Assembly (NCBI GenBank): GCA_021796385.1
Contig: JAJYXQ010000005.1
Location: 21,398 to 85,397, forward strand
Origin: Thermoplasmata archaeon
GTDB lineage: Archaea; Thermoplasmatota; Thermoplasmata; Lutacidiplasmatales; UBA184
Length of the DNA: 64,000 bases
Reading direction: 5' to 3'
In this document: positions 3,873 through 61,802 of the stretch, one piece after another
Layout of the letters: each line of letters opens with the position of its first letter
Numbering within the stretch: position 1 is the stretch's first letter
Notes under the pieces: generated by a model
Database searches by the model: none
What the model was told of the DNA's origin: nothing
What the model saw: only the letters and a program-made list of their open reading frames with translations
Translations under genes and position numbers: made by a program

Positions 3873-4054
3873 ATGGTACCAAGGCATAACACGACAGGGT
3901 AAAAACCCTTCGCTTCGTTTCCTGGGCTCTAAACACACCGAGAAAGGCCACTCCTTCATCGAAGCCAGGAGGTTCACGGGTTTTCTCGAAGGCGATGTAG
4001 GGTCCCATCCGGGAAAGGGACCGAATCCCTGACGCGTCCCTGTTCCAGCCAGGG

Positions 4055-14324: not shown

Positions 14325-15107
14325 TCAGCCGATATATCCGAGATCTTCCCGGGGCTGGGACGCCTCGGGCTGGGGCGGGGCAAGCTTTGCCTCCGTCTCC
14401 CTCAGGCGCGACGCGATCCGGTCAATCTCGTGGGCCTTGGTCTCGAGGTCGGAAAGGTCGAACACGAGGTTCAAGACGCTCATGAGGATGCGGAGGACCG
14501 CCTCGGCGCTTCGAGGGTCTACAAAGTACCCGGAGGTCTCCCCCATGAGGCACACGCTCTCCATCTGATAGAGCTGACCAATGCCGAGGAAAAGACCGCT
14601 TGCACCAATGAGCCCGCTCCCGGGTTCGTTCTTCGAGAACACCACTCCGAGTTTCTTCATCATCTCCACACGGGCCGGGGAGGTGGCTGCGCCAAGGACC
14701 CGAGGGTTCTCGACCATGTGGCCCTGCGCGAACCCAGCGAGCGTGTACACCTCCTTCACTCCGAGTTGCGATACGACCTGGAGTATCCGGTCTGTGAGCT
14801 CGTATTGTCCTTCCGGACTCAGGCCTTGGTAGTCGCCGACAAGAATGAGGAGATCGCGCTGCTTCGGGGACTTCGCCTTGTAATAGTAGAGGTCGTTCGA
14901 TACCATCCGGATGACCCCGTCATCCCCCACGTACACCTGGGGAGGAAAATACTTCGAGTAGATCGTGGCGTACTTCGTCGCGGAGATGGCATCCTTGAGG
15001 TAGTCCGCAGCCAGCTTCGCCACATTGCCGAGCCCGGGCAGACCCACGATGAGTACCGGCTTGTTCAATTCCACTTTGGTCAGGACATTCACGACAACAT
15101 CGTCCAT
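14325..15107 (-). CDS. PAC2-family proteasome assembly chaperone (PbaA/PbaB-like)
   Basis: NKPVLIVGLPGLGNVAKLAADYL is the N-terminal signature of PF09754-type archaeal PAC2 proteins. 260 aa. Confidence 0.65.
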   Translation of the reverse strand: MDDVVVNVLTKVELNKPVLIVGLPGLGNVAKLAADYLKDAISATKYATIYSKYFPPQVYVGDDGVIRMVSNDLYYYKAKSPKQRDLLILVGDYQGLSPEGQYELTDRILQVVSQLGVKEVYTLAGFAQGHMVENPRVLGAATSPARVEMMKKLGVVFSKNEPGSGLIGASGLFLGIGQLYQMESVCLMGETSGYFVDPRSAEAVLRILMSVLNLVFDLSDLETKAHEIDRIASRLRETEAKLAPPQPEASQPREDLGYIG

Positions 15108-23812: not shown

Positions 23813-24424
23813 ATGGCGGACGAAGCGCCCATCCGGGACGAGTTGCCGCTCAAGGTAGAGGCGCTCCTCTTTGCGGTCGGGAAGCCCCTGACCGTCCATG
23901 AGCTTTCGCGTGCCCTCGGCACGGAGGACTGGAAAGCCGTTCAGGTCGCCTTGAAGAAGCTCCATCATGCCTACGCGTCGCGCCTCACCTCGCTCGAGGT
24001 GGCCCGGGCGGGGGACGGATGGATCATCCAGGTCCGCAAGGCCTACCTACCGACCGCCCGCACCGTGGCGGCGCCGGAACTTCCCAAGAAGTTGCTCAAG
24101 ACCTTGGCCCTCATCGCTTATCATCAACCGATCCTCCAAAGTCGCCTGGTGCGGATGCTGGGGGACTCCGCCTACGACGATGTTCCCCGGCTTCGCGATC
24201 TCGGCTTCGTGCGGGCGAGCGAGAAATCCAACACGCTCGAACTGACCACGAGCACCCGGTTCGCCGAGTACTTCGGCTTCGACACGACGGACCGGGCGAA
24301 GCTCAAGAAGCTGCTCGGCCGGAACCTAGGAATCCCCGACGCTCCGGAGACGAGCGAGGTAGAGACCCCGGAGGAGAAGCATGCCGGCCCCGGAGATGTC
24401 ACACCGGGGGAAGGACGCGCTTGA
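23813..24424 (+). CDS. scpB: segregation and condensation protein B (ScpB)
   Basis: LKVEALLFAVGKPLTVHELSRALGTEDWKAVQVALKKLHHAYASRLTSLEVARAGDGWIIQ contains the tandem winged helices of ScpB. Confidence 0.85.
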   Translation: MADEAPIRDELPLKVEALLFAVGKPLTVHELSRALGTEDWKAVQVALKKLHHAYASRLTSLEVARAGDGWIIQVRKAYLPTARTVAAPELPKKLLKTLALIAYHQPILQSRLVRMLGDSAYDDVPRLRDLGFVRASEKSNTLELTTSTRFAEYFGFDTTDRAKLKKLLGRNLGIPDAPETSEVETPEEKHAGPGDVTPGEGRA

Positions 24425-27400
24425 GTTCCTCGAGCCCCGTGCGGAGCCGCTCGAGGGCGGAAGGGTAGTCGCCCCGGTTCTTGAGACCCACCGCCTCGTC
24501 CATGAGGACCGTGATCTGGGTCGTGTCGACACGCTCGGCCTCGGCCTGCTCGATCCGGGAGACGAGGAGGCTTTGGAGGTTGATGAGTTCCGTCTGCCAC
24601 GCCTTGCGCTGGTTGAGCGCCTGTTCGATTCCCATGATCGCCTGGGCGGCCGCCACGAAGTTGTTCTCGGAGAGGAGGGACTCGGCCTCGCTCGTCTTCT
24701 CCTCGAGACCCGCCACCGAGACGTTCAGCTGGTCCCGGGCCCGCTGCAACTTCTTGTGGAACTCTTTGAGCTTCTCGGGCACGGCGGCGCGGATCATCGA
24801 GTCGAGGAGGACGGACGCCTCATGCGTCTTTCCCAGGGCACCGTTCAGGTTCGACTCCTGCAGGGCGTTCTTCGCCTCGGATATCTTCTCGATGATGGGA
24901 GTGAAATCGAGACCGAGCCGTTCGCAAAGCATCCCCAGCTCGGCCAACCGGTCGGACTCTGCGTCGATATACCGGGTATAGAACTGATTGATCTCGGTCT
25001 CTAGGCTCTTCCAGGTCTCGGCAACGGCCAGGAGATGGTTCTCGCGTAGGTTGTCCATCACGACGTCGGCAAGCACTTGGAGCTCTTCCAGCTTGGAATG
25101 TTCGTACGAGGCGGGGATCTTCTGGAGGCGCTCCTGCTGTTCGTGGAGGAATGCGACCGTGGCCCGGTTGACCTCACGGTAGGCCTGATCGATCGCCGTC
25201 GCCATCGCCGGATAATCTTCCCGGGTCTTGGCCTGGTGGGCCTGCTCGAGAGCGGTTGCCAGCCGAGCATGGGCTTCCTCCCCAGAAGGAAGAAGGTCCA
25301 GGAAGCCAGAGGCCTCCGTGAGCATGCGGGTGAAGGCTTCGCTCACGGTCTGGCGCATCGGTTCCCAGGCTTGTTTCGCCAAGGTCTCGGCCTCCCCGTA
25401 CTCACCCCGGGTGATGTCCGCCCGGGCCTTCGAGATCAACGACCGGTCCACATCGACCCCGAGTCCGGCAGCGGTCTCAGCCAGCTCTTCGACCCGGCGG
25501 ATGGACGATTCGGCCCGTCCCTGGAACTTCGCCGCCGACTGGAGATGCTCGCTGACGCGGAGCACCTGCTCCAGGACCTCAGCATAATGCCCCTCTTCAA
25601 AGATCTTCCGCACTTCGGTGATCTCCTCCGCAAGGTTGGGTGCGATCAGACCGGCCTTGATCGCCTCGTTCACCTTCCCTTCAAGGATCCCGAGCGAATT
25701 CTCGGCGATGGAATGCTGGAGCTCGATCCGCTCCAGTTCGCTCTCGGCCTTTCCCACGAGCTGGAGGATGTCCTGGGTGTTGTTCGTGGCCACTTTGTTC
25801 CGAGCCTGGGCCAGGTAGTTCTCGGCGGTCATCGTCAATGTACCCTCCATCTTGGCACGCGTGATGACGTTCTGGAGATTGTTGAGCAGGGTGTTAAGAT
25901 GCTCCTTGACCAAGGCGAGCGCGGAATTTCGGACATCTTGGGAAATGTCGAGGGCGACGGCGAACTGGGTCCCGGCGATCTTGGCGGCGACCTCGTCCAA
26001 CCGGGCTTGGTAGGCGATGACGTTAAGGTTCATCATCTCGGCCTGGGAAACGATTTCCTTGGCCGAAGCGAGTGCACGTTGCGCGGCCTCTTGGAGGGCT
26101 CGGTTCTGGGAAAAGTCCCGATGAACCTGCGCAAGGATCTTTGCGACACCGACCGGAGCGGCAGGGGACTTGAGCTTCTCATCGGCCTCATGCACGAGGC
26201 CTTCCGCGGCACGGATATCGATGCCTTGGTCGCTAGCGATCTTGAGCTCGGACTGCAGGGACTTTATGTTGTCCTGAAGGACGGGCCGTACCCGGTCCAG
26301 CACGCGGTCCATGAGCTCTTCGATGAGGAGCTTGACCTTCGAGGGGTTCGCTCCGGGAAGTTGATCCTGGAGGCTGGCGATCCGCTCTTCCCATTCTACG
26401 GTAGGGACCCCGAGCTGCGAGAGACCCTCCAGCACCCCTCGGAGGACATCCAACAACATCCGGCCATCGGTGCGCACCACAAGGTCATCCATTGACGATT
26501 GGATGTTGGCGAGCTGAGCCTCCGCCTCTTCGAACGCGAGCTTCTGGTAGGACTCCCTGACACCGGCGATGCGAGCGGTGACGGCACGCAGCTCTTCCAC
26601 GGGGGAGCCCTTCTTGCGCAGTGCGGTGATCTGGGCCACAATCTGCCCGATACGTTCCACGATCTTCTGAGAGCGTTGTTGGAGGGCCACGGCCTGTTCC
26701 TTCGCCCGGACCGCCGTCCTGTACGCTTCGAGGTAGCGACCGGCCTGGAACAGGTCGCGGGCCTGGTTCTGGAGTTCCCGGACATCCGGCGGCTCCGAGA
26801 TCATTTTGGATATCTCCACGATCGAGAGCTTGGCCCCGGCGAGGGCGTCTTCCGCCCGGGACATCGACAGCTGGGTGACGCGGCTGGACAAATCCTGCGC
26901 GGAACGCAGGGCCCGGAGCACGTTGCCGGTGTCCATGATCTGCCGGATGTCTCCTATCTCCCGGGTTAGGTCGGCGGTGTCATAGTCCATGGCCCGAAGG
27001 TTCTGCTCCCCGGTACCGAGGTCCTCGATCGCCTTGCCGACCTCGTTGGCGAAGGTGCCCGCGGTCTCCCGCTCCACCCGAACCAGGGCATCCATCGAAG
27101 CGATGAACTGGTCGATAGAGTCGGGCTGGGTCTTGACTTCAGCGATACGCTCGCTGGTCTGTTTGCGGGCCTCCTCGTTCGTCAAGGCCTCCAAGTCCTG
27201 ATTGAGCGTCTCTAACCTTTTGGCAAGCCCCTCCCGGACGGGGCCCTGAAGCTTTACGTTGATGTCGGAGAGGAGCTCGATCACCCCGGGTATGTTCCCG
27301 GAAGAGAGCATCATCTTGAGGTCGTCCAGACGAGAACGGACCTCGTTTGGAACCGCCATCCCGAGGTCAACCATCATGGTCAGACACCGCTCCGCCTGAT

Positions 27401-28805
27401 CGATCTGCCCTCGGAAGAACGAAGTGCTCTGGCGGCCGAGCGTCTTAGCCCCTTCGCGCAAGATGGTCTTCGCTCCCGCGAAGTCCCCGCGGGCACTGGC
27501 TGCCTCGGCTTTCGTCGTGAACTCCTGAAGGTCCACGACCGATAAGCCGGCCACTTCCAACTTGAAGAGAAGGCCTCGGAACTCTTCGACCTCGCTCCGG
27601 GCGATCTCGACGTCCTCCATCAACGTCTTCGCTCGCTCCAGGGCGGCGGATGAGGAATCGAGGGCACGCGCGTACTCCTTCGCATTGAGCAACGCTCGGG
27701 TCTGGTTCATCCCTTCCACGATGCCGTCGATGGGCCGCTTGACAGCGCGAGCCTGCTCGAGATAGGGACGTATCTCTTCCACTTGGCTAAAGATCACCCG
27801 AAGTATGGGGCCTTCCACCATCTCTCCCAAGCGAGAGATGCGGGACACGCACTCTCCGGGGGGCAAGGTCGTGAGGTTCTTCTCCAAGAAATCGAGCTCC
27901 CCGGATACTTCCGTTACGTCCGTCCCGCCCTCACGCATCCGCTCGACGACCGCTCGGAGCTTCTCCAGTCGTCCCGAAAACTTGGGACGGAGCGATTCGG
28001 AGAGTTTGGCAAGGGCGGTGACGAGTTGGTTCCCCCGCTCGTCAATCTCGGTGAAATGGACCTGGTCGATCCCACTCAGGGCGTCATCGATTCCGGCCGT
28101 GTCAATCCCTTCCTCCTTGGCGACCTTTCGGGCTTGGGTGAGCTCCTGGGCCAGGGTGGACAAGCGGTCGGTCACTTTGGGGACCTTGGTCCGGAACTGG
28201 GACTCTAAGCATTCCGAAGCCTCGGTAAGCTTGCTCTGGTCGATAAGGGCAAGGCAGTCGGCCAGGGACCCGAGCGCCGCGGAGACCTCCCCTTCGGGCA
28301 GAGCCCAAGTGATGACGGCGGATACCCTCTCTTTGAGCAGGGACCCCGCCTTCTCCTCCACAGCACTCAGTGTGGTGTCGATGGAGGCGACTTCGCGGAA
28401 GGATTCGGCGAAAGATCCCTCCTTGGCGAGACCTTTCGCCTTTTCGATGTTGTCTCCGATACCCATGCTGTCCGGGATTCCGACCGAAACCAAGGTGGCA
28501 CGACGTTGGGCGAGTTTCGTTGCTCTCTCCTCGAGGGTCTGTGTGAACTTGGCGGTGATCTCACCGGAAAGGGCAACGGCCAGGCGATCCGCCTCCGACC
28601 ACGTTGGGGGGGAGGCGAACTTGTCTATCTCCGCCCGTTTCTCACCGAGACCATCCATCTGGAGGCCGAGGTCCTTGACGAGCGACATTAGCTTGTCCAG
28701 CTTGGCCTTGTCCGCCTCGAACGTGCCCCGTTGCCGGCGCATTTCCTCGGCGCGTGCGACCAGGTTGCGCTGGCGCAAGAACTCGCTACCGCCTAGCCCG
28801 CCCAT
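24399..28805 (-). CDS. giant (1468 aa) coiled-coil protein with about 14 degenerate repeats; no ATPase motifs; function unknown
   Basis: Ala/Glu/Leu/Arg-rich with no Walker A/B, no TM and no Cys. About every 70-110 aa it repeats a TPR-A-helix-like motif of the form G-[RDE]-Y-x-x-A-x(3)-A-x(2)-A (FQAGRYLEAYRTAVRAKEQA, FEEGHYAEVLEQVLRVSE, ITRGEYGEAETLAKQAWE, SARGDFAGAKTILREGAK, KTREDYPAMATAIDQAYRE, KNRGDYPSALERLRTGLEE and others). Its 3' end overlaps scpB convergently by 26 nt. Confidence 0.7.
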   Translation of the reverse strand: MGGLGGSEFLRQRNLVARAEEMRRQRGTFEADKAKLDKLMSLVKDLGLQMDGLGEKRAEIDKFASPPTWSEADRLAVALSGEITAKFTQTLEERATKLAQRRATLVSVGIPDSMGIGDNIEKAKGLAKEGSFAESFREVASIDTTLSAVEEKAGSLLKERVSAVITWALPEGEVSAALGSLADCLALIDQSKLTEASECLESQFRTKVPKVTDRLSTLAQELTQARKVAKEEGIDTAGIDDALSGIDQVHFTEIDERGNQLVTALAKLSESLRPKFSGRLEKLRAVVERMREGGTDVTEVSGELDFLEKNLTTLPPGECVSRISRLGEMVEGPILRVIFSQVEEIRPYLEQARAVKRPIDGIVEGMNQTRALLNAKEYARALDSSSAALERAKTLMEDVEIARSEVEEFRGLLFKLEVAGLSVVDLQEFTTKAEAASARGDFAGAKTILREGAKTLGRQSTSFFRGQIDQAERCLTMMVDLGMAVPNEVRSRLDDLKMMLSSGNIPGVIELLSDINVKLQGPVREGLAKRLETLNQDLEALTNEEARKQTSERIAEVKTQPDSIDQFIASMDALVRVERETAGTFANEVGKAIEDLGTGEQNLRAMDYDTADLTREIGDIRQIMDTGNVLRALRSAQDLSSRVTQLSMSRAEDALAGAKLSIVEISKMISEPPDVRELQNQARDLFQAGRYLEAYRTAVRAKEQAVALQQRSQKIVERIGQIVAQITALRKKGSPVEELRAVTARIAGVRESYQKLAFEEAEAQLANIQSSMDDLVVRTDGRMLLDVLRGVLEGLSQLGVPTVEWEERIASLQDQLPGANPSKVKLLIEELMDRVLDRVRPVLQDNIKSLQSELKIASDQGIDIRAAEGLVHEADEKLKSPAAPVGVAKILAQVHRDFSQNRALQEAAQRALASAKEIVSQAEMMNLNVIAYQARLDEVAAKIAGTQFAVALDISQDVRNSALALVKEHLNTLLNNLQNVITRAKMEGTLTMTAENYLAQARNKVATNNTQDILQLVGKAESELERIELQHSIAENSLGILEGKVNEAIKAGLIAPNLAEEITEVRKIFEEGHYAEVLEQVLRVSEHLQSAAKFQGRAESSIRRVEELAETAAGLGVDVDRSLISKARADITRGEYGEAETLAKQAWEPMRQTVSEAFTRMLTEASGFLDLLPSGEEAHARLATALEQAHQAKTREDYPAMATAIDQAYREVNRATVAFLHEQQERLQKIPASYEHSKLEELQVLADVVMDNLRENHLLAVAETWKSLETEINQFYTRYIDAESDRLAELGMLCERLGLDFTPIIEKISEAKNALQESNLNGALGKTHEASVLLDSMIRAAVPEKLKEFHKKLQRARDQLNVSVAGLEEKTSEAESLLSENNFVAAAQAIMGIEQALNQRKAWQTELINLQSLLVSRIEQAEAERVDTTQITVLMDEAVGLKNRGDYPSALERLRTGLEELKRVLPPV

Positions 28806-35447: not shown

Positions 35448-36710
35448 TTAAACGGAAGGTGAACTCTTGCCAGTCCCTTGAAGGGCCAGGTGCCGGAAGT
35501 GCCGATTGGTCCACCAGGTACCAAAACATGCTACCGCTACTATCCCCGAGTAGGCGATGAGGATAAACGGGGGAAAAGCCTCGAAGAGCACTCCGCCAAG
35601 GGCCGGGCCGGCGAGACCCGGTAGACGTGTGGCGACACTGAAGGATCCGATGGTCGTTGCCCTTCGTTCCCGTCCGACGGATGCACCGATGTAGACCGCT
35701 GGGGAGACGGTATCGAACATGCCGATGGCTCCCCAAACCTCGTAGAGCCCTCCCGCCAACAATACGTTGCGCACAAAGACCATCACTGTGACGGCGACCG
35801 CTTCCCCGGCAAAGCTTAGGGTGGCCGTCCGAAGGGCGCCCAACCGGTCCACAAGTTTACCCGAGACAAAAGCAAGGACTCCCATCATCCCGAGCTCGAT
35901 GGAGGCGAGCAGACCGTAGAAATTGACTGGGGCCCCTAAGTACCGGGTGAAGTACAACGGGAGAAAGGGGCCATACATCTGTTGGCCAAAACTGACCAAC
36001 CCGTATACTCCGATGATCGGCAGGATCGGCCCAAGTATGGTCCATCCTCCCGGCCGTTGTTTCTTGTGGCCATCAATCAGAGGCCGCATCGGGCTTTCCG
36101 GCGACGGCTCTCGGAGGTACCACCATTTAATGACCAGTGCTATGCCGAGGAAAAGGGTGGCGATCAAGAAGACCCAAGCCCAACCGTATCCTTGTCCTAT
36201 CAATGAACCGATAAAGGGCATCGGGACCGATACCAGCGAAGGAAGCACGTAGGGGGAAGACATCGCAATCCCTCGTTGCGATTCCGATACTGACTCGAAG
36301 AGTATGGCCCGGGTGGCGCCAGTACCAAAGGTGCCCCCTATGCTGAAGAGGCCAAAACCTAGAAGGATCGAAGGCAGCGTGGGTAGGTTGGCAACCAATC
36401 CAATGAGGATGAGGGCGGTACCACCCAGCATACTTCCTGAGGCAAGGAGGATCACATCCTTGCGCTTGCCTCGATCGGCCAAGATTCCCCCGAGCGGGGC
36501 TCCCACCATACCAAGCCCGAGACCAACGGCAACAACCAGGGCGATGGTGAGGATACCTATCCCCTCGGAGAACAAGAAAATGCTGAAAAGGGGCCACCAG
36601 AGGGAGGTGGCTCCGGTGTGAAATATTCCGGAGAACGCAATGGCCCGAGGGTTCCCAGGCAGGGTGATCGAAACGAACAGCTTCCCGAAACGGGATCTAT
36701 CTTCGCCCAT
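35448..36710 (-). CDS. MFS transporter
   Basis: 420 aa with 12 predicted TM helices. ADRGKRKD-type loop between TM2 and TM3. Confidence 0.75.
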   Translation of the reverse strand: MGEDRSRFGKLFVSITLPGNPRAIAFSGIFHTGATSLWWPLFSIFLFSEGIGILTIALVVAVGLGLGMVGAPLGGILADRGKRKDVILLASGSMLGGTALILIGLVANLPTLPSILLGFGLFSIGGTFGTGATRAILFESVSESQRGIAMSSPYVLPSLVSVPMPFIGSLIGQGYGWAWVFLIATLFLGIALVIKWWYLREPSPESPMRPLIDGHKKQRPGGWTILGPILPIIGVYGLVSFGQQMYGPFLPLYFTRYLGAPVNFYGLLASIELGMMGVLAFVSGKLVDRLGALRTATLSFAGEAVAVTVMVFVRNVLLAGGLYEVWGAIGMFDTVSPAVYIGASVGRERRATTIGSFSVATRLPGLAGPALGGVLFEAFPPFILIAYSGIVAVACFGTWWTNRHFRHLALQGTGKSSPSV

Positions 36711-36781: not shown

Positions 36782-37513
36782 TCAGCGCTTCAGATGGACG
36801 ATCTCATACTTCTCGGTCTTCTCCAGCTTACCTAGGATATCGATCGCGAGGTTCTCAGCCTCCTTGGCGGTACCACTTCGGTAGCTCAGGTTGAGGTTGG
36901 CCTGGGCTCGTTGGTACCCCTTTCCTATGGCAATAGCCTTCCCCAAAACATGCGCTCCCGAGGGTTCAAACATCACCAAGGAGGGCTTCCCTTCGAGGAG
37001 GGCAGCGATCAACAGTATCGTCCCGAGCGGTCGGCGGCGCTTATCCGTATTGTTCTCCCAGAAGAACACGGTGAGAGAGTCGATGAGGTCGGCCAACGTC
37101 TTCGGAGGGTTCTTCCGGAGCGTCCGGATGGCCATGTATCCATCCGCTCGCACTCCCGTCGGACAGGCTGTGAGATTGCTCGAGACCCTTTCGATCTTGG
37201 AATACTCCATTAAGGGAGATGGGCACGCGATCTTGCATGCGAGCAGGACCCCACCCTGGTAGGTGATTCCGACCACGGTGGGTCCACGCAGGGCCGACTC
37301 CCGTGCGTAGTCCATCTGGTAAACTCGTCCATCTGGGGAGTAGATATTGTCCTTGTCGAACACCTGCGCCATCGGTCCCGCCATCGAGGTGTAGGCGGCG
37401 AGCGCCGCCCGTACAAGCTCCGCCTTGCTGGAAAACGGCCCAGTACTGACCAACGAGTCCAGGTATCGATCGATCTCTTCCGGTATAGCCGTGCGAAGTT
37501 CTGTCATTGCCAT
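36782..37513 (-). CDS. proteasome alpha-type subunit homologue with an N-terminal ribbon-helix-helix extension
   Basis: Residues 48-243 are collinear with archaeal PsmA ([19 protein letters not shown] matches [29 protein letters not shown] matches AIGSGS). Residues 1-47 ([43 protein letters not shown]) match the CopG/MetJ RHH consensus, and the first ATG sits exactly at the start of the RHH beta-strand. Confidence 0.65.
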   Translation of the reverse strand: [243 protein letters not shown]

Positions 37514-37574
37514 TAATACATCATGACTCCATATAACCGTAGCGTAGATGCATTTCTGACGTATGTCGGATTAG

Positions 37575-37582
37575 TTATATAA
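37575..37582 (+). promoter_or_regulatory. TATA box (TTATATAA) of the small-ORF/radical-SAM operon; may also serve the divergent proteasome-like gene
   Basis: A strong archaeal TATA consensus, ~34 bp upstream of the GTG at 37616. GGAGGTG (37603-37609) lies between them as a Shine-Dalgarno. Confidence 0.5.
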
Positions 37583-37811: not shown

Positions 37812-38966
37812 ATGGAGGAAATAAGTATAGATCGGTGGGGTCCAGTCCTCGAGAACCGGAAACTCATCAAACTCATCTGGCATGTCACCAACCGGTGCAA
37901 CTTCGCTTGCTCTTACTGTTACGTTGTGGTGAACCGGTACAAGACAGATCTTCCAACCGAGCAGATGTTCGACATTGTCGATCAGATCAACCGGTCGGGG
38001 ATCCAAGCGCTGAACTTGACTGGCGGCGAGGTCTTCACCCGGGAAGACATCCTGCCCATCCTTGAGCGCATTCGCCCCGAGATCCGAGTAGGCATAGCCA
38101 CCAATGGATCGCGGATCACCCCCGAGATCGCCCGGGCGATGGCGGAGCGGGACGCCTTTGCCTCCATCACGATCGACAGCCTGGACGATGCCGTGAACCA
38201 ATCAACCCGCGTCGGGAGCGACACCCCTCGACTCTTGGCGAACGTGAAGCTTCTCATCGACTCTGGGGTACGGACCGGGCTCAGCGTCGTAGCGACTCGG
38301 ACCAACGCAGGTCATATCGCCCAGATGGCGGAGCACTTCTACCGCATGGGTGCGGTCAGTTGGAAGGTGGGTGCCTTGCGCAACACCGGAGAGGCACTGG
38401 AGTCTCACTCTTTCTCCTCATTGGCGCTCAGTTACGAGGAGGAAGAGCGGCTGTTGAACACTCTCTACGATTTGCGACTGAAATATCGTCCCTTGGGTTT
38501 CGAAGTGCGAGCGAGTTTCACCCCCCACCCAGTGTACTTCGAGAAGTTTGCATCAGAGATAGGAGGCAAGAGCCCATGCCTTTGCGGGTACGCCCGGGCG
38601 GTCCTGAAGCACGATGGGGGACTCGTGCCTTGTGACGCCATCAAGTACCCCGATGACTACGTCAAAGCGGGGTTTGCCATCCCCAACATTCTCCAGGGAC
38701 CCGAGCTTCAAGAGGCTTTCTACGGCTCCTCTCTTTTCCGGCTCTGGACGATGGCCACGTCGGGAGCGGTCCCCGTCGGATGCAACAACTGCTCCTATTT
38801 CGATGCCTGTCGGGGCTTCTGCCGCGGCCAAAGCATGGTACGCACGGGCACAGTCACCGGTCTTCTTGGCCGCTCGACGAGCTGTGCCAGGAACGACAAG
38901 ATCCGCGCCACGGGTGTCCGACCCATTCGAGTGTCCACAGGTACGAAGGTGTCGTCCATAGCATGA
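37812..38966 (+). CDS. radical SAM enzyme with C-terminal SPASM domain (peptide/protein-modifying maturase family)
   Basis: WHVTNRCNFACSYCY is CxxxCxxC. The C-terminal CLCGYARAVLKHDGGLVPCD...GCNNCSYFDACRGFCRG is the 7-Cys SPASM auxiliary-cluster pattern. No N-terminal RRE/PqqD domain is evident. Confidence 0.85.
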   Translation: MEEISIDRWGPVLENRKLIKLIWHVTNRCNFACSYCYVVVNRYKTDLPTEQMFDIVDQINRSGIQALNLTGGEVFTREDILPILERIRPEIRVGIATNGSRITPEIARAMAERDAFASITIDSLDDAVNQSTRVGSDTPRLLANVKLLIDSGVRTGLSVVATRTNAGHIAQMAEHFYRMGAVSWKVGALRNTGEALESHSFSSLALSYEEEERLLNTLYDLRLKYRPLGFEVRASFTPHPVYFEKFASEIGGKSPCLCGYARAVLKHDGGLVPCDAIKYPDDYVKAGFAIPNILQGPELQEAFYGSSLFRLWTMATSGAVPVGCNNCSYFDACRGFCRGQSMVRTGTVTGLLGRSTSCARNDKIRATGVRPIRVSTGTKVSSIA

Positions 38967-39643
38967 GCACTGCAGCCACCGTAAACGCCGGGCACGTCAT
39001 CTGCAAGTTGAGCGTGCCATTGCCGGCAGGAGTGTCGTACCTCCAAACGGTATCTGTTGCCCATCCGTTGGCGATCTTCGAGATGCAGGCCATCATTCCG
39101 ACGCAAGATGGGCGGATCTGGACCAGCTTACGGATCAGCTCTCCGACCGATGTCGAGAGATTGCTGCAGGACATCGAGAGCTCCCCCGATGTTCAAGGAG
39201 TCGATGTGATCAGCCGGGACTTGGAAGGCGCCGCATTGCATGTCGTTTCGGAACTATGCCAACCCAACGTATTCCTAAAAGCGATTGGGCTCGGGCTGAT
39301 CCCGGAGTTCCCAATTTTCGTCAAGGCAGGTCACTTCACACCGATCGTGGCGGCCAAGGAAGAGAGCGTGATGAAACTCTATGATCAATTCCGGAGCGAC
39401 TTCCCGGGAACGACCATCCTTTCGATCCGGAAGGAGACCACGGAAGGAATGAAGCATCTCCTGACCCCACACCAGTTGGAGATCTATCGCACGGCTCTAG
39501 CCTCGGGATACTGGGATGTACCGCGCCGTATCTCTATCACGATGCTTGCGAGCGTGCTCGGGGTCTCGAAATCCACGCTGTCAAAGACCTTGGCCATTGT
39601 GGAAAGCAAGCTCATGCACAATGTTCCTTCAACCGGATTCTGA
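38963..39643 (+). CDS. HTH_10 (Bat/DmsR-type) transcriptional regulator
   Basis: Start overlaps the rSAM stop (ATGA). The C-terminal LTPHQLEIYRTALASGYWDVPRRISITMLASVLGVSKSTLSKTLAIVESKL is the PF04967-type HTH. The track ORF (38780) over-extends into the rSAM gene. Confidence 0.6.
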   Translation: MSTAATVNAGHVICKLSVPLPAGVSYLQTVSVAHPLAIFEMQAIIPTQDGRIWTSLRISSPTDVERLLQDIESSPDVQGVDVISRDLEGAALHVVSELCQPNVFLKAIGLGLIPEFPIFVKAGHFTPIVAAKEESVMKLYDQFRSDFPGTTILSIRKETTEGMKHLLTPHQLEIYRTALASGYWDVPRRISITMLASVLGVSKSTLSKTLAIVESKLMHNVPSTGF

Positions 39644-50198: not shown

Positions 50199-51128
50199 AT
50201 GCGGATATCCCCCGATCTGGGCGAGCATTTGGATCGCCTCGCTTCGAACTTCCACTACGACTCTTCGTTGACGGTCGACCCCGTGGCATTCGTCCAGCGA
50301 CTCCGGAGGGACCCCCGGGCGGCCGAGATCGTAGGGGTGCTATCGTCCACGGTCGCGGTGGGGAATGTACTATCGATACGGCGGAACCTGACGGGGCTCT
50401 TGCAGCGGCTCGGCGAAGACCCCCGGGGTTTTGTGGAAGCTTTCCCGAAGAACCGTTGGCGCACGGTCCTCGCCCCGTGGAAACATCGGTGGATCCGGGC
50501 GGATCAGATGGGATTCCTTCTCCTGCGATTGCGAGAGATCTATGAGAACTATTCTATAGGGCTCGAGGAGGTCTTTTTGGAAAAGAGCGGGGGGCTCCCG
50601 CTTGAGCCAGCCTATTTTGGCCAAGGGCTGGACGCGCTGTCTAGAGCGCTCCGGTGGGGATCCACGAACCGCCAGCATACCTTCTACGAACCTCCGCCAG
50701 GCTACCTCCAGCTTTTCCCGACCCCGATCGGTCCTGGGAGCCGACCGGTGTGCAAAAGGCTGGCCCTTTTTACCCGGTGGATGGTCCGTCAACACACCCC
50801 TGACCTTGGCCTTTGGAGACGGGTCCCTCCTTCCATCCTGCATGTGCCCCTCGATACGCACGTCTATTGGATATCCTACCACATGGGATTGACCCGACGC
50901 AAGACCCGGACCTGGAAGACGGTCGAAGAGATCACCGGCCATTTGCGCGGATTCGATCCCGAGGACCCGATCCGGTTCGATTTTGCGCTAGCCCACACCG
51001 GGATCTCCGGGGACTGCCCGAAACAGCCCGTTCTCACGGTTTGCGGGAAGTGCGCTCTCCGCCCGGATTGCGACCTATGGGTGCGACGAGGCCCCCGAAG
51101 AGCGAGCCGAACCCGGCCAACCAAGTAG
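50199..51128 (+). CDS. DUF2400/TIGR02757-like conserved hypothetical protein
   Basis: KRLALFTRWMVRQHTPDLGLW...LHVPLDTHVYWIS and the C-terminal CPKQPVLTVCGKCALRPDC cluster. The family assignment is from memory. The 3' 95 nt overlap the convergent S53 gene. Confidence 0.5.
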   Translation: MRISPDLGEHLDRLASNFHYDSSLTVDPVAFVQRLRRDPRAAEIVGVLSSTVAVGNVLSIRRNLTGLLQRLGEDPRGFVEAFPKNRWRTVLAPWKHRWIRADQMGFLLLRLREIYENYSIGLEEVFLEKSGGLPLEPAYFGQGLDALSRALRWGSTNRQHTFYEPPPGYLQLFPTPIGPGSRPVCKRLALFTRWMVRQHTPDLGLWRRVPPSILHVPLDTHVYWISYHMGLTRRKTRTWKTVEEITGHLRGFDPEDPIRFDFALAHTGISGDCPKQPVLTVCGKCALRPDCDLWVRRGPRRASRTRPTK

Positions 51129-54100
51129 GAGCAGATTGCGTCGGGGAAGACGAAACACCAGTGGAGGATGGGGCGGCGGCGGGCAGAGTGGCAGAACATG
51201 CTGGGGCATTACCCGTTGCGCTGTTCGAGAGCTGAACCTCAAAGCAGAATCCTCCCGAACTGCCGGTCGATGCCTGGATAAGGAACTCATAGGTTCCCCA
51301 GCCACCAAACTGTCCGCTCGCTTGAGTGTAGAGGTCTATCTGCATGATCGCATTCGGTCCGGCCTGAGATTGGGCAGCATTGGACACCGTGACAGTGGGA
51401 GGAGCGACTCCGGTGTACACGGTGAAGGCAGGTTGAGGTCCGGTGACCGCTCCGTCAGATTCGTAGGCATTGATGTAGTAGTAGTTGTTCCACTGGGATT
51501 GGGAGATTGCCACCGAAAGTAACATGCAGCCTCCCGAGGCAAGCGACCCGGACACCTGTTGCCCGAAGGCAATAGCGGTTCCGATGGTACATCCTCCTCC
51601 ACCGGATGCCGGGCTCACAGTGATCGTCACCGAATTCGTCGCGGAGGCTCCGGAAGAATCTTTCACGGTCAGTGTGGAAGTGTAGGTTCCCGATGCGCTG
51701 TAGGTGTGGGAGGGGTTCGAGCCGGTACCGGAGGCGCCATCACCGAAGGACCAAGAAAAGCTGTAGGGAGACGAACCGCCGGTGGCCGAACCAGTGAACG
51801 TTACGGTGAGGGGAGCCGTACCCGACGTGGGTGTGGCACTTGCGGACGCCGTTAAGGGTGAGGGGCCTCCTCCGGAATTGCAAGCGGGAGAGGCTCCGGC
51901 CTGTGAGTTAGAGAACTGGAGCTCAAAGCAGAAACTTCCCGATGAACCGGAGGACGCCTGGATGAGGAATTCGTACGTTCCCCAGCCTCCGAATTGGCCC
52001 GAGGATTGGACGGAAAGGGAGATGGTCATGGCGGCATTGGGCCCAGCCTGGGACTGGGCGGCGTTCGTGGGGGTGACGGTTGGGGGGGAGATCCCGGTGT
52101 ACACCGTAAACACCGGCTGGTTACCGCTCACTGTGCCATCGGTCTCGTAGGCATTCAGATAATAGTAGTTGTTCCAGTTGGTCTGGCTCACCACGGCGGA
52201 TAGGAGCATGCATCCACCGCCTGTGACGCTTCCGGAGACCTGGGTCCCGATGGAGACCGAGGTTGCGGAGGTGCACCCGCCCGACGAAGGAGGAGAACTC
52301 ACCGTTATCTGAACGGAGCTTGAGGCCGTAGTTCCCGCTGCGTCGGTGACGGAAAGTACCGAAGTAAAGGTGCCCGCCGTCGAGTAGGTGTGCGATGGGT
52401 TCTGGGCCGAACTAGTGCCCCCATCTCCGAAGGTCCACGAGTAGGTGTACGGGGCAGTGCCGCCCGTGGCGGTACCGGTGTACGTTACGGCCAAGGGAGC
52501 CGTGCCCTGTGTTGGAGAGGCCCCGGCTGTCGCCGTGAGGGGAGCCACGGCTGCGGAGACGGCAATCGCAACGGAGCTTGTGGCAGTCGCCCCCGAAGCA
52601 TCGGTCACGGTGAGCGTGGCAGTATAGCTCCCCGCTGAGGAATAGGTATGCGATGGGTTCTGGGAAGCGGAGGTCCCCCCGTCTCCAAAGCTCCAAGCGT
52701 AGGAGTAGGGAGAAGTGCCCCCACTCGCTGATCCGGTGAAGGAAACCGTGACAGGAGCTGTCCCGCTCGTCGGCGAACCCGATGCCGAGGCCGAGAGCGG
52801 AGTTCCCCCACCCCCAGAGCCAGCGTTCCAGTGGGCCGCCAGAGCCCCAATGTTCGGAGTTCCGACACCTGTGGCCGCGTCCCAGCCGGGGCCGGCGGAG
52901 TACCCGTTACTTCCCGTCGTGACATCGTGGAAGACGGAGTGGTAGAGCGACCCCTCGGCCAGGCTGTATACCCTTGGGCCAGCGAACCCGGTGGCCCCTG
53001 CCGCTTGATAAATGACATTGAGGGCAGCGGCCCACATCGGGCATGCAAGGGAGGTCCCGCCCACCTGCTGGGATTGCCCGTTCGTGATGACATTGACCCC
53101 GGAATTCGGGTCGGCATCCATCGCCACGTCAGGGACACCCCGCTCTGTCGTTCCGCCACAAGTGCTGGAGAGGCCTGGCATGTTCACTTGGTACGAGGGA
53201 GGAGAGTCGTTGACATCGCATCCGCCTCCCGTCCCGCTCCACGCGCTCTCGCTCCCATAGGAACTTCCCGAAGGAGTGATGGTGGTTCCACCGACCCCGA
53301 GCCCGTCGGGTTCGGCCGCCGGGTAGTCCACGGCCGCCCCATTGTCCCCTGCCGAAGCCAGCAGGGTTATGCCCGCCGCTTCCGCGCTTTGCCATATCGA
53401 GTGATAGGGCCCGCCACCACCCCAACTGTTCGAGCCGAAGGGGATACCCTGGGAAACGAAGGTCTGGTCACATACTGAAGGGTCCGAAGAGTCCAAGCAC
53501 ACAAGGATGGTGGCTCCGGGAGCGATCACGTGCGCCCACTGAATGTCCAAGTCGGTCTCTGTATCCCAACCCGATTGCCCCCCACTGCACGTACTGGACC
53601 CGCTACCTGTGAACTGAAGGGTCGTGGACGGGAGGCCATACTGCGTATCGAACTGGTTCAGATCATTCTGGTACCCCTGGTCCGTCTCGCCTGGATCGCA
53701 CACCTCGGCAAGACCTATGGTGCCCGACCCGGTATCGCCAGCATTGAGCAGAGGGGTATCGTTGTAGAATCCCTGCATCACGGAGGGAGTGGTCGCGGCC
53801 AAGGGGTGGATGGAGATGGAAGGGAACGAGAGCATGACGTGGGGAACGTCGAACCCGTTGAGCCCGGTGAACGACTCGACCGCAGAGGCGATGGAGGAGG
53901 GAAGTTCCGGAACTCCGCGGGGAGCGATACCCGATTGCGAACCCAAGGAGAACTGATAGAGTTCGATATGGAACGCCTGGTCGATGGCGTTGGCAGGGCC
54001 GCTAACCCGGTACACGAGCGGACCGGAGGTCGGGGAGACGGTGAGACCGTTCCCGGAAAGGTAGTTCACAAGGTTCGTCACCGTCGCCGAGGAGGGACCG

Positions 54101-54588
54101 AATCTCTGGTAGAACTGGGAAAGTGAGAGGTAGTGTTGGTAATCTGGCGAGCCAGGTGTATTGACCCCTTGGAGGAAGGCGGACAGACTGGAGGTCTGGG
54201 GAATGGCCAAGTCGAGGTCGAAGTGTACGGTCGTACTACCCGCGACCTTGCCTGAGGGTATCGCCTTTATGGGAAGGCTTCCCACACTGCCAACGATCGG
54301 GACCAGGGGACCGATCCCTCCAGTTGTTGAAACCGCAGTCGTCGGCACACCGGTGACCGGGGCGAGACCCGTAAGCCACGCGGAACTACCGGCCAAGGCC
54401 GAGACCGCTAAGACGGCAGCGACCACAATAGAGAGGATGATAGCCCCGTCCAATACGGGGGTCGAGGGCCGCGCCCTCTCGCTCCCTACCGGGCTGATTC
54501 CCTCGGGAAGCACAACGGGCACAACGCGTGTGAATATATAACATTGCCCACGGTACGATATATCAAGGCAGTACGCCGCCCCATCCAC
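51034..54588 (-). CDS. secreted S53 (sedolisin/kumamolisin-type) serine peptidase with three PKD domains, two beta-rich accessory domains and a C-terminal hydrophobic anchor
   Basis: Pro-kumamolisin activation region (HYLSLSQFYQRFGPSSATVTNLVNYL). Catalytic core SWGGGGP...LASAGDNGA and GGTSLACPMWAA (the GGTS Ser nucleophile). PKD repeats (TAPVTVSFTGSASGGTSPYSYAWSFGDGGTSASQNPSHTYSSAGSYTATLTVTDASG). C-terminus ...WLAGFGSLFGGLVAPIGRNPGGERTSRKP. The real start may be an internal GTG at the signal anchor. Confidence 0.8.
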   Translation of the reverse strand: MDGAAYCLDISYRGQCYIFTRVVPVVLPEGISPVGSERARPSTPVLDGAIILSIVVAAVLAVSALAGSSAWLTGLAPVTGVPTTAVSTTGGIGPLVPIVGSVGSLPIKAIPSGKVAGSTTVHFDLDLAIPQTSSLSAFLQGVNTPGSPDYQHYLSLSQFYQRFGPSSATVTNLVNYLSGNGLTVSPTSGPLVYRVSGPANAIDQAFHIELYQFSLGSQSGIAPRGVPELPSSIASAVESFTGLNGFDVPHVMLSFPSISIHPLAATTPSVMQGFYNDTPLLNAGDTGSGTIGLAEVCDPGETDQGYQNDLNQFDTQYGLPSTTLQFTGSGSSTCSGGQSGWDTETDLDIQWAHVIAPGATILVCLDSSDPSVCDQTFVSQGIPFGSNSWGGGGPYHSIWQSAEAAGITLLASAGDNGAAVDYPAAEPDGLGVGGTTITPSGSSYGSESAWSGTGGGCDVNDSPPSYQVNMPGLSSTCGGTTERGVPDVAMDADPNSGVNVITNGQSQQVGGTSLACPMWAAALNVIYQAAGATGFAGPRVYSLAEGSLYHSVFHDVTTGSNGYSAGPGWDAATGVGTPNIGALAAHWNAGSGGGGTPLSASASGSPTSGTAPVTVSFTGSASGGTSPYSYAWSFGDGGTSASQNPSHTYSSAGSYTATLTVTDASGATATSSVAIAVSAAVAPLTATAGASPTQGTAPLAVTYTGTATGGTAPYTYSWTFGDGGTSSAQNPSHTYSTAGTFTSVLSVTDAAGTTASSSVQITVSSPPSSGGCTSATSVSIGTQVSGSVTGGGCMLLSAVVSQTNWNNYYYLNAYETDGTVSGNQPVFTVYTGISPPTVTPTNAAQSQAGPNAAMTISLSVQSSGQFGGWGTYEFLIQASSGSSGSFCFELQFSNSQAGASPACNSGGGPSPLTASASATPTSGTAPLTVTFTGSATGGSSPYSFSWSFGDGASGTGSNPSHTYSASGTYTSTLTVKDSSGASATNSVTITVSPASGGGGCTIGTAIAFGQQVSGSLASGGCMLLSVAISQSQWNNYYYINAYESDGAVTGPQPAFTVYTGVAPPTVTVSNAAQSQAGPNAIMQIDLYTQASGQFGGWGTYEFLIQASTGSSGGFCFEVQLSNSATGNAPACSATLPAAAPSSTGVSSSPTQSAPTWLAGFGSLFGGLVAPIGRNPGGERTSRKP
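51078..52518. repeat. intragenic tandem duplication (~720 bp x 2), each copy encoding a PKD domain plus a ~150-aa Cys-containing beta domain (~75% aa identity between copies)
   Basis: The two protein segments ...CMLLSAVVSQTNWNNYYYLNAYETDG...GQFGGWGTYEFLIQASSGSSGSFCFE and ...CMLLSVAISQSQWNNYYYINAYESDG...GQFGGWGTYEFLIQASTGSSGGFCFE are near-identical. Antisense ORFs echo the repeat. Confidence 0.7.
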
Positions 54589-61726: not shown

Positions 61727-61802
61727 CTGCCACCCTCCTTCCGATGGGAGAGACGAGCGCATATAACCTACGGGCCGACCTCTTTATACGTTCGGCCGAC
61801 TT

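What the first reader, a model, noticed from the sequence alone, without database searches (positions are those of the whole stretch)
36782..37513. Proteasome alpha-type subunit with an in-frame N-terminal ribbon-helix-helix domain
The ORF's first 47 residues ([43 protein letters not shown]) match the RHH consensus (strand; lpeel..ld; g.sRSelIreAl..yl). Residues 48-243 are a short but complete alpha-type proteasome subunit, with the gate motif FDK for YDR, [13 protein letters not shown], and AIAIGKGYQ. The first ATG coincides with the start of the RHH beta-strand, which argues against a chance upstream extension. A DNA-binding domain fused to a 20S-type subunit is, to my knowledge, not a described architecture. 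The RHH sits exactly where the alpha-ring gating N-terminus normally is, so it could be a regulatory paralogue. Two PAC2 assembly chaperones are encoded in the same window, but no canonical psmA or psmB.
Basis: partly seen in the sequence, partly recalled or inferred. Interest (0 to 1): 0.6.

Follow-up and report, generated by a model that had tools for sequence, protein, structure and literature searches.

The report
Proteasome alpha paralogue with DNA-binding domain
An uncultured archaeon, like about a hundred relatives, encodes a protein in which a small DNA-binding (ribbon-helix-helix) domain is fused to the front of a proteasome alpha-type subunit, and a matching triple DNA repeat sits in the gene's own promoter; this points to a link between the protein-degradation machine and gene regulation that I could not find described.

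Summary
The ORF is real: 36782-37513, minus strand, 243 aa. The fusion is real too. Residues 52-243 are a divergent alpha-type proteasome domain. It scores 63 bits against Pfam Proteasome, gives Foldseek E of about 1e-18 against 20S alpha chains, and scores only 87-93 bits against the archaeal PsmA models (cut-offs 219 and 287).

[quoted passage not shown] Direct Pfam hits are weak. The call rests on profile-profile comparison (90-98.6%), on transitive hits to proteins that pass the RHH_1 cut-off, and on an AlphaFold model whose Foldseek matches are almost all RHH proteins.

I collected 95 unique family members, all from uncultured archaea and mostly Thermoplasmatota. All keep the domain, which is more conserved than the alpha part. 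They also keep the alpha-ring gate cluster (F/Y-D...P...Y) and the HbYX-pocket lysine.

New here: nearly every member has a TATA-like box, three 11-bp repeats with an ATACG core, and a Shine-Dalgarno site just upstream. In the window the repeats lie at 37532-37564.

Best reading: an autoregulated, probably ring-forming alpha paralogue. I could not test whether it joins the 20S particle, or whether a canonical psmA coexists in the same genome. I found no paper describing the architecture.

The parts
36782..37513 (-). ORF of the RHH-alpha fusion protein: 243 aa from ATG 37513-37511, stop codon 36784-36782
   Evidence: an identical protein (P0001) is called on 24+ public contigs
37505..37507 (-). 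Second in-frame ATG (Met3). This is the start used by all orthologues (MTELR...) and by 241-aa members of the same 90% cluster
37376..37507 (-). Ribbon-helix-helix domain, residues 3-46: strand 4-10, helix A 12-24, G25 turn, helix B 30-44. E5, R7, G25, K30, A31, E32 and R35 are invariant in 94-95 of 95 family members
37337..37375 (-). Linker plus retained gate tail, residues 47-59 ([13 protein letters not shown]). It holds F52-D53, which correspond to T. acidophilum alpha Y8-D9. Low AlphaFold confidence
36785..37360 (-). Alpha-type proteasome domain, residues 52-243. It carries the [12 protein letters not shown] signature (P60, G62, R63, Q66 and Y69 invariant) and K106, which corresponds to the HbYX-pocket K66 (88/95). 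It lacks the end of H1 and the C-terminal helix
37532..37564 (-). Putative operator: three 11-bp units, ATACGTCAGAA / ATGCATCTACG / CTACGGTTATA. The middle unit is degenerate. This is the family-wide triple ATACG repeat
37575..37582 (-). TATA-like box TTATATAA, just upstream of the repeats; position conserved across the family
   Evidence: sequence inspection; no transcription start site data
37527..37530 (-). Shine-Dalgarno-like GGAG. Family consensus is GGAGG, 8 nt before the ATG; in the window it is 13 nt before Met1 and 19 nt before Met3

Best explanation
The gene encodes a paralogue of the 20S proteasome alpha subunit that also acts as a transcription factor.

Its N-terminal ribbon-helix-helix domain pairs with the same domain of a second subunit. 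It binds three in-phase 11-bp ATACG repeats that lie between the TATA box and the ribosome-binding site of its own gene, and so it most likely represses its own transcription.

The alpha-type body still has the residues that only make sense in an assembled alpha ring: the Y8-D9-P17-Y26 gate cluster and the lysine that receives HbYX tails of activators. It therefore most likely forms heptameric rings, alone or mixed with the normal alpha subunit. That would place up to three RHH dimers over the pore, which matches the three operator units.

Shown here: the fusion, its conservation, the RHH and alpha folds, and the conserved cis-element.

Inferred: DNA binding, autorepression and ring formation.

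Open: whether it sits on beta rings, and what signal it senses.
For: 1. The fusion is real and under selection. There are 95 unique proteins with E5, R7, G25, K30, A31, E32 and R35 in 94-95 of 95. The N-terminus is more conserved than the body.

2. The N-terminus is an RHH.
- 19 of 26 members hit RHH_1.
- The N-terminal profile finds P0080, P0083 and P0109 at library-wide E of 5.5e-8 to 9.5e-4. These pass the RHH_1 cut-off at 46.7, 24.3 and 23.3 bits.
- hhalign gives 98.6% and 90.2%.
- The AlphaFold model has pLDDT 84 with strand-helix-helix topology. 22 of 23 Foldseek matches are ParD, NikR, PrpA or Reg576, with TM 0.60-0.73.
- In the hhalign register, E5, R7 and A9 fall on CopG R4, T6 and T8, which are the base-contacting positions (my knowledge of the CopG-DNA structure).

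3. The cis-element.
- The consensus of 49 non-redundant upstream regions, anchored on the Shine-Dalgarno site, is cttatttga..g.acTACGctATgaATACgccaagactACg.ca.gAcGGAGG.
- 28 of 51 have at least one TAC[GA] pair at exactly 11 nt, against 0.04% of random windows from the same loci. Spacings peak at 11 (42 cases) and 22 (17 cases).
- ATACG-N6-ATACG occurs 9 times in about 760 kb of held loci, and 8 of these lie directly upstream of family genes.
- In the window, ATACG-N18-TACG matches only at 37538-37564 (0.04 expected by chance).
- The element travels with the gene through unrelated neighbourhoods.

4. Ring features: F/Y52 94/95, D53 94/95, P60, G62 and Y69 95/95, K106 88/95. The alpha fold has TM about 0.7 to 20S alpha chains.

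5. Paralogue status. Scores are far below the PsmA equivalog cut-offs. The gene is never in the psmA-SBDS-Rrp4-Rrp41-Rrp42 context that a canonical Thermoplasmata psmA occupies. It falls outside the canonical alpha clade in a neighbour-joining tree.
Against: - There is no experimental or multimer-model evidence for DNA binding, dimerisation or ring formation.
- Seven subunits cannot all pair into RHH dimers.
- Direct Pfam and PDB sequence hits for the N-terminus are below threshold. All Foldseek E-values for the small domain are non-significant (0.55-9.6).
- The window's own operator is one of the more degenerate copies, with a poor middle unit.
- Short forms have lost part of H1 and the C-terminal helix, which may weaken or abolish contact with beta rings.
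- The coexistence of a canonical psmA in the same genome was not shown.
- No second operator was found in the 64-kb window, so the regulon beyond self-regulation is unknown.
Confidence: 0.6

Rival explanations
1. It is a plain transcription factor. The alpha-like body has been recruited only as an oligomerisation or ligand-sensing module, as the C-terminal domain is in NikR, and has no physical link to the proteasome.
For: Short forms lost part of H1 and the C-terminal helix. Scores against PsmA models are low. No proteasome gene is a conserved neighbour. The autoregulatory operator is typical of free-standing RHH repressors.
Against: The gate cluster (F/Y52, D53, P60, Y69) and the HbYX-pocket lysine K106 are kept in 88-95 of 95 members over deep divergence. 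As far as I know, these residues matter only in an alpha ring that is opened by activators. Long forms keep a nearly full alpha subunit at 120-190 bits.
Confidence: 0.25
2. It is the organism's only alpha subunit: the working 20S cap in these lineages simply carries an RHH.
For: No canonical psmA lies in the 64-kb window. I could not show one elsewhere in any genome that carries the fusion.
Against: It scores 87-93 bits against cut-offs of 219 and 287. Structural elements are lost. It sits on a long branch outside the canonical clade, which includes Thermoplasmata alphas. Distribution is patchy, with no cultured relative carrying it, while cultured Methanomassiliicoccus has a canonical alpha (P0204). 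It is absent from the conserved exosome-superoperon position.
Confidence: 0.08
3. The N-terminal domain does not bind DNA. It acts as a protein-protein dimeriser or a lid over the alpha-ring pore, and the upstream repeats are bound by some other factor.
For: RHH-like folds are small and their E-values here are modest. The domain sits directly on the gate tail.
Against: The invariant residues fall on the base-contacting strand positions and on the helix-B N-cap. The repeat array follows the gene into unrelated genomic contexts and keeps its register to the Shine-Dalgarno site, which is best explained by self-recognition.
Confidence: 0.06
4. It is an annotation artefact: a chance in-frame upstream extension, or a mis-assembled fusion of two genes.
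For: None found.
Against: The same architecture occurs in 95 unique sequences from independent assemblies and sources. There are no stop codons, and the extension is the best-conserved segment.
Confidence: 0.01

Closest known systems
Archaeal 20S proteasome alpha subunit (PsmA; TIGR03633 / PF00227 + PF10584)
   Same: Same fold (Foldseek E about 1e-18, TM about 0.7). It has the alpha-specific H0 signature SPDGRxYQxEYA, the gate cluster Y8/D9/P17/Y26 and the HbYX-pocket K66. It aligns better to alpha than to beta models.
   Different: It has a 48-residue RHH in front of the gate tail. Scores are far below the family cut-offs (87 against 287 bits). Short forms lack the end of H1 and the C-terminal helix. 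It is not in the psmA-SBDS-exosome operon. It has its own operator-bearing promoter.
Alternative alpha subunits of archaea (e.g. a second alpha in haloarchaea; reviewed in PMC13022661)
   Same: It would be an extra alpha-type gene beside the main one, possibly giving rings of altered composition.
   Different: Known alternative alphas are full-length, score as PsmA and carry no extra domain. None is reported to bind DNA (my knowledge).
NikR (RHH + C-terminal oligomerising sensor domain)
   Same: The N-terminal RHH is followed by a larger domain that sets the oligomeric state and could sense a signal. NikR is among the structural matches of the N-terminal model.
   Different: NikR's C-terminal domain is an ACT-like nickel-binding tetramerisation domain, giving two RHH dimers. 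Here the partner is a proteasome-fold domain that normally forms heptamers, and the operator has three direct 11-bp units.
CopG / Arc / ParD-type autorepressors (Pfam RHH_1, ParD_antitoxin)
   Same: Best sequence and fold matches for residues 3-46. There are repeated sites in helical phase overlapping the protein's own promoter.
   Different: Those are 45-90 aa stand-alone proteins or antitoxins with an adjacent toxin gene. No toxin gene is found here, and the domain is covalently joined to a 190-aa proteasome-fold body.

Membership tests
Proteasome alpha-type subunit (PF00227 + PF10584) | Proteasome (Ntn-hydrolase-like) fold | tested here: met
   PF00227 63.1 bits against cut-off 22.4. AlphaFold model with pLDDT >90 over the body. 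Foldseek E about 1e-18 to 20S alpha chains.
Proteasome alpha-type subunit (PF00227 + PF10584) | Alpha-specific N-terminal signature / H0 helix (YDR...FSPxGRLxQvEYA) | tested here: met
   PF10584 27.0 bits, a hair under its cut-off of 27.7, for the window protein; it is recorded for many orthologues. P60, G62, R63, Q66 and Y69 are invariant in 95/95. Alpha models beat beta models, 93 against 18 bits.
Archaeal PsmA equivalog (TIGR03633 / NF003075) | Score above the curated equivalog/subfamily cut-off | tested here: not met
   87 bits against 287.35, and 93 bits against 219. Long-form relatives reach 115-190 bits, still below.
Archaeal PsmA equivalog (TIGR03633 / NF003075) | Full-length alpha architecture including the H1-H2 region and the C-terminal helix | tested here: not met
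   Alignment with four canonical Thermoplasmata and Methanomassiliicoccus alphas shows a 9-12 aa deletion at the end of H1 and loss of about 25 C-terminal residues.
Archaeal PsmA equivalog (TIGR03633 / NF003075) | Assembles as an alpha7 ring on a beta7 ring of the 20S particle | not testable with these tools
   No multimer prediction or biochemistry was available. There is only indirect support from the conserved gate cluster and K66 equivalent.
Ribbon-helix-helix superfamily (Pfam RHH_1 and clan) | Strand-helix-helix topology of about 45 residues | tested here: met
   AlphaFold on the domain alone: extended 1-9, helices 10-22 and 28-42, pLDDT 84. The same is seen in the full-length model. 22 of 23 Foldseek matches are RHH proteins with rmsd 1.1-4.5 A, though all at non-significant E-values.
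Ribbon-helix-helix superfamily (Pfam RHH_1 and clan) | Significant sequence-profile match to RHH families | tested here: met
   The direct hit is below cut-off (15.3 against 20.5 bits) and the PDB profile search is not significant. However, 19/26 members hit RHH_1, hhalign gives 90.2% against five classical RHH proteins, and there are transitive links through P0080, P0083 and P0109, which pass the RHH_1 cut-off.
Ribbon-helix-helix superfamily (Pfam RHH_1 and clan) | Dimerises through an antiparallel beta-ribbon and binds repeated DNA sites | not testable with these tools
   Binding was not tested. Supporting observation: a conserved triple 11-bp repeat in the gene's own promoter.
ParD-type type II antitoxin | Adjacent ParE-type toxin gene and a C-terminal toxin-binding tail | tested here: not met
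   Neighbours are radical SAM, HTH_10, MFS, FEN1, RidA, Suf and others. No toxin gene occurs in any context. The C-terminal part is a proteasome-fold domain.

The most novel reading that the evidence does not exclude
The protein forms a heptameric alpha-type ring whose N-termini converge over the pore. There they make three RHH dimers that read the three 11-bp operator units laid across the ring face. Docking of HbYX-tailed partners (PAN/Cdc48, PAC2-type chaperones) or of a beta ring moves the gate tails through the conserved Y8-D9-P17-Y26 cluster and pulls the RHH dimers off the DNA. The cell would thus get a direct transcriptional read-out of proteasome assembly or activator occupancy, possibly controlling more genes than its own.
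Probability: 0.15. Interest if true: 0.9.

Novelty: new variant of a known kind. Interest (0 to 1): 0.7.

Why it matters
Proteasome core subunits are not known to carry DNA-binding domains. In archaea it is also poorly understood how proteasome production and assembly are regulated.

This family is conserved and self-contained, and it joins a sequence-specific DNA-binding module to the gate tail of an alpha-type subunit. It keeps the gate-opening residues and the activator-docking residues. It therefore offers a concrete, testable candidate for coupling ring assembly or gating to transcription. It also poses a structural puzzle: seven subunits against dimeric RHH units and a three-site operator.

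The predicted operator makes EMSA, footprinting and reporter tests possible straight away, without culturing the organisms.

Tried and rejected
1. Canonical psmA in the same genome: not achieved.
- A search with a canonical Thermoplasmata alpha listed 120 of 7906 hits, none traceable to a fusion-bearing assembly.
- One candidate chosen by contig count (P0211) came from other samples.

2. Two look-ups of large window ORFs to get neighbourhood annotation failed. The mechanical ORF starts did not match the called genes.

3. Gene neighbourhood as a clue to function: rejected. The radical SAM / HTH_10 / MFS context holds only for close relatives. Other members sit next to FEN1, RidA, Suf or ribosomal genes.

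4. PAC2 linkage: rejected. The genes are 22-24 kb away and are absent from other members' loci.

5. Search for further operators (a regulon) in the window: none besides the gene's own promoter. None was found upstream of canonical psmA in other Thermoplasmata loci, though those genomes may lack the fusion.

6. A known RNA element in the 298-nt intergenic region: none in Rfam.

8. Simple covariation between strand residue 9 and the operator core (ATACG against ATCC): no clean pattern by eye.

9. The sigma-70 promoter scan does not apply to archaea and found nothing.

Full report
**Observation**

- Pfam places a Proteasome domain on residues 76-237 (63.1 bits). The alpha-specific N-terminal signature falls on 56-72 (27.0 bits, cut-off 27.7).
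- NCBIfam's archaeal alpha models score 93 and 87 bits, and the beta model 18 bits. All are far below the equivalog cut-offs of 219 and 287.
- The best matches among solved structures are all 20S alpha chains, by sequence (E down to 1e-20) and by fold (Foldseek E about 1e-18, TM about 0.7). The fold search used an AlphaFold model with mean pLDDT 84.6.
- A tblastn of a canonical alpha and a beta subunit against the window finds nothing else.

**Is the N-terminal extension real?**

A search of 5.8 billion proteins returned 48 clusters of 235-269 aa that cover 93-100% of the query. All come from metagenomes or Thermoplasmatota MAGs.

In the alignment every member begins M-x-E-[LIV]-R and keeps the whole N-terminal segment. 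Mean column identity is 79% for the first 48 residues against 53% for the full length. A metagenome scan seeded only with the N-terminal peptide gave 49 loci, and 47 are the same fusion.

In 95 unique proteins, E5, R7, G25, K30, A31, E32 and R35 are present in 94-95. All orthologues start at the position of Met3, and some gene callers give 241 aa for the same cluster. The real start is therefore probably ATG 37507-37505. This does not affect the domain.

**Is it a ribbon-helix-helix?**

Direct evidence is weak.
- RHH_1 gives E=0.02 and 15.3 bits, against a cut-off of 20.5.
- A ParD model gives E=0.002.
- A profile search of PDB sequences is not significant.

Four independent lines close the gap.
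1. 19 of 26 orthologue N-termini hit RHH_1 (best E 1.4e-4) and 10 hit ParD. No competing family recurs.
2. An exhaustive HMMER search of 1.84 billion representatives with the N-terminal profile found 59 proteins. They include stand-alone 48-83-aa proteins and P0080, P0083 and P0109 (E 5.5e-8, 3e-7 and 9.5e-4). These three pass the RHH_1 cut-off at 46.7, 24.3 and 23.3 bits.
3. hhalign gives 98.6% against a mixed RHH alignment. It gives 90.2%, E=1.6e-6, against CopG, NikR, ParD1, Arc and Mnt only. The strand and both helices align in register.
4. The domain modelled alone has pLDDT 84, with an extended 1-9 and helices 10-22 and 28-42. 22 of its 23 Foldseek matches are RHH proteins (ParD, NikR, PrpA, Reg576), with TM 0.60-0.73. 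All of these matches have non-significant E-values (0.55-9.6), so it is the pattern of matches that carries weight, not any single hit.

In the hhalign register, E5, R7 and A9 fall on CopG R4, T6 and T8, the base-contacting positions. That assignment is from my knowledge of the CopG-DNA structure and was not tested here.

**A conserved cis-element (new)**

Directly upstream of the gene, in divergent orthologues with unrelated neighbours, I found tandem 11-bp repeats with an ATACG core.
- There are five copies in a Methanomassiliicoccales MAG (L014), four in L007, and two or three elsewhere.
- Anchored on the Shine-Dalgarno site, 49 non-redundant upstream regions give the consensus cttatttga..g.acTACGctATgaATACgccaagactACg.ca.gAcGGAGG. 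This reads as a TATA-like box, three 11-bp units, then the ribosome-binding site.
- 28 of 51 regions have at least one TAC[GA] pair at exactly 11 nt, and 12 have two or more. Only 0.04% of random windows from the same loci do. Core spacings peak at 11 (42 cases) and 22 (17 cases).
- ATACG-N6-ATACG occurs nine times in all held loci (about 760 kb), and eight of these lie upstream of family genes.
- Long-form and DHVE2 members carry a related core (TATCC / ATCCRT) at the same spacing.

In the window the units are ATACGTCAGAA (37564-37554), ATGCATCTACG (37553-37543) and CTACGGTTATA (37542-37532). A TTATATAA box lies at 37582-37575 and GGAG at 37530-37527. ATACG-N18-TACG matches nowhere else in the 64 kb (0.04 expected by chance). 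Rfam finds no RNA family in the region.

Direct repeats in helical phase that overlap a gene's own core promoter are the usual signature of an autorepressing RHH protein. This inference is from general knowledge of Arc, CopG and omega.

**What kind of alpha subunit is it?**

I aligned it with canonical alphas from three Thermoplasmata MAGs and from Methanomassiliicoccus luminyensis. Three things stand out.
- The RHH is added in front of an intact gate tail ([10 protein letters not shown] against AGQMAYDR).
- The end of helix H1 is shorter by 9-12 residues.
- The last 25 or so residues, the C-terminal helix, are missing.

The representative search also found long forms of 262-301 aa that keep these elements. 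They score 115-190 bits against the archaeal alpha models, except the 262-aa P0077, which scores only 56-63 bits.

A rough neighbour-joining tree of the alpha domains puts all canonical alphas, including those of Thermoplasmata, in one clade. All RHH-alphas fall outside it, with the long forms nearest. Long-branch effects are possible.

A canonical Thermoplasmata psmA sits in the classic psmA-SBDS-Rrp4-Rrp41-Rrp42 array. The fusion never does.

Across the family, the residues matching T. acidophilum Y8, D9, P17, G19 and Y26 are kept in 94-95 of 95, and K66 in 88 of 95. From published work on PA26 and PAN complexes (my knowledge), these residues stabilise the open gate between neighbouring subunits and receive the HbYX C-termini of activators. 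Their retention argues that the protein still forms an alpha-type ring that activators can address.

**Context**

In the window and in 55%-identical relatives, the gene is flanked by a divergent radical-SAM / HTH_10 pair and followed 71 nt later by an MFS transporter. Other members have quite different neighbours: FEN1, DUF92, RidA, Suf genes, ribosomal proteins and AsnC. The gene with its promoter is therefore the conserved unit.

Two PAC2-family genes are in the window (177.6 and 100.9 bits) but lie 22-24 kb away. Their C-termini are ...GYIG and ...SIYG. The second fits an HbYX motif.

**Distribution**

Named sources are Thermoplasmata, Methanomassiliicoccales and DHVE2 MAGs. One contig is labelled Nitrospirae; its relatives have archaeal-type neighbours and promoters, so mis-binning is likely. 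No cultured organism appears among the hits.

**Mechanism, with levels of support**
- Shown: a conserved fusion of an RHH fold to an alpha-type proteasome fold, and a conserved triple 11-bp repeat between the TATA-like box and the ribosome-binding site of the same gene.
- Inferred with good support: the RHH binds these repeats and represses its own transcription.
- Inferred with moderate support: the body forms heptameric rings. The N-termini would then cluster over the pore and could form at most three RHH dimers, which matches the three operator units.
- Speculative: activator or beta-ring docking alters DNA binding.

Rival readings are listed with their probabilities in the Rival explanations section: a pure transcription factor, the sole alpha subunit, a non-DNA-binding lid, and an artefact.

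**Novelty**

Four full-text searches found no description of an RHH or any other DNA-binding domain fused to a proteasome subunit. Neither did a reading of the 2021 survey of proteasome homologues (PMC8665760) or of a 2026 review of proteasome plasticity (PMC13022661). Public annotations call the protein 'hypothetical', 'peptidase' or '20S proteasome alpha/beta subunit'. Both domains are known, but the architecture and its operator are not. I rate it a new variant of a known kind.

**Main gap**

I could not show that a canonical psmA coexists in the same genomes. That check is simple with whole MAGs and is listed first among the next steps.

Noticed in passing
family-wide; window 37514-37526: The 8 nt between the Shine-Dalgarno site and the ATG are conserved at the DNA level (GGAGG-nATGaCGT-ATG) across proteins only about 30% identical. 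CGT directly before the ATG reaches the 70% conservation threshold across the 52 upstream regions. CGTAT(G) is the reverse complement of the operator core ATACG, and it lies about 22 nt (two helical turns) from the third unit. It may be a fourth, inverted site over the start codon. The window copy is altered (ATGATGTATTAATG).
   Followed up: partly
P0075, P0084, P0085, P0092, P0097, P0077; L098 2885-3748; L145, L146: Long-form RHH-alpha proteins (262-301 aa) from lower-GC organisms keep the H1 segment and C-terminal helix. All but P0077 (56-63 bits) score 115-190 bits against archaeal PsmA models. They have TATCC-type 11-bp repeats upstream. They may be closer to the ancestral fusion, and more likely to sit on beta rings.
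   Followed up: partly
P0082, P0089, P0091, P0095, P0087: Stand-alone 55-75-aa RHH proteins share the M-x-E-L-R-V strand and the SKAEL(V/M)R helix of the fused domain (library-wide E 1e-7 to 1e-4). They are either the source of the domain or products of fission. Their genomic origin was not examined.
   Followed up: no
window 37812-39643 (+): A radical-SAM protein (384 aa) overlaps by 4 nt with an HTH_10 regulator (226 aa). The pair is divergent from the RHH-alpha gene across a 298-nt spacer. The arrangement is conserved in the 55%-identical relative (L004). In one strain variant (L002) a DDE transposase is inserted next to a shortened HTH_10 gene.
   Followed up: partly
window 35448-36710 (-): An MFS transporter gene starts 71 nt after the RHH-alpha stop on the same strand, with no terminator-like site between them on that strand. 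The same order occurs in L004, and an MFS gene is the divergent neighbour in L008. Co-transcription in this sub-clade is possible.
   Followed up: no
window 14325-15107 (-) and 61803-62585 (+): Two PAC2-family proteins of 260 aa each. Their C-termini are ...DLGYIG and ...EPSIYG. The second fits an HbYX motif that could dock into alpha-ring pockets. The second gene lies next to FEN1 (60704-61762), and FEN1 is the convergent neighbour of the RHH-alpha gene in another sub-clade (L006, L007, L012).
   Followed up: partly
window 24399-28805 (-), 1722-3977 (-), 15336-17579 (-): Three very long ORFs (1468, 751 and 747 aa) have no Pfam match at E<=1e-5. The 1468-aa one is a called gene on public contigs, also without a Pfam hit.
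   Followed up: no
window 51034-54588 (-): A 1184-aa protein with a pro-kumamolisin (sedolisin) activation domain and several PKD domains. It is probably a secreted acid protease, consistent with an acidophilic lifestyle.
   Followed up: no
L013 (VBOD01000062.1): One family member sits on a 4-kb contig binned as 'Nitrospirae bacterium NS_1'. Its many soil relatives have archaeal-type short MetE, Suf genes and TATA-plus-SD promoters. The label is probably a binning error, but bacterial carriage was not excluded.
   Followed up: partly
P0043 (152 aa, on a 301-kb contig): A truncated member, 62% identical over the first 59% of the protein. It may be a pseudogene or a frameshifted copy.
   Followed up: no
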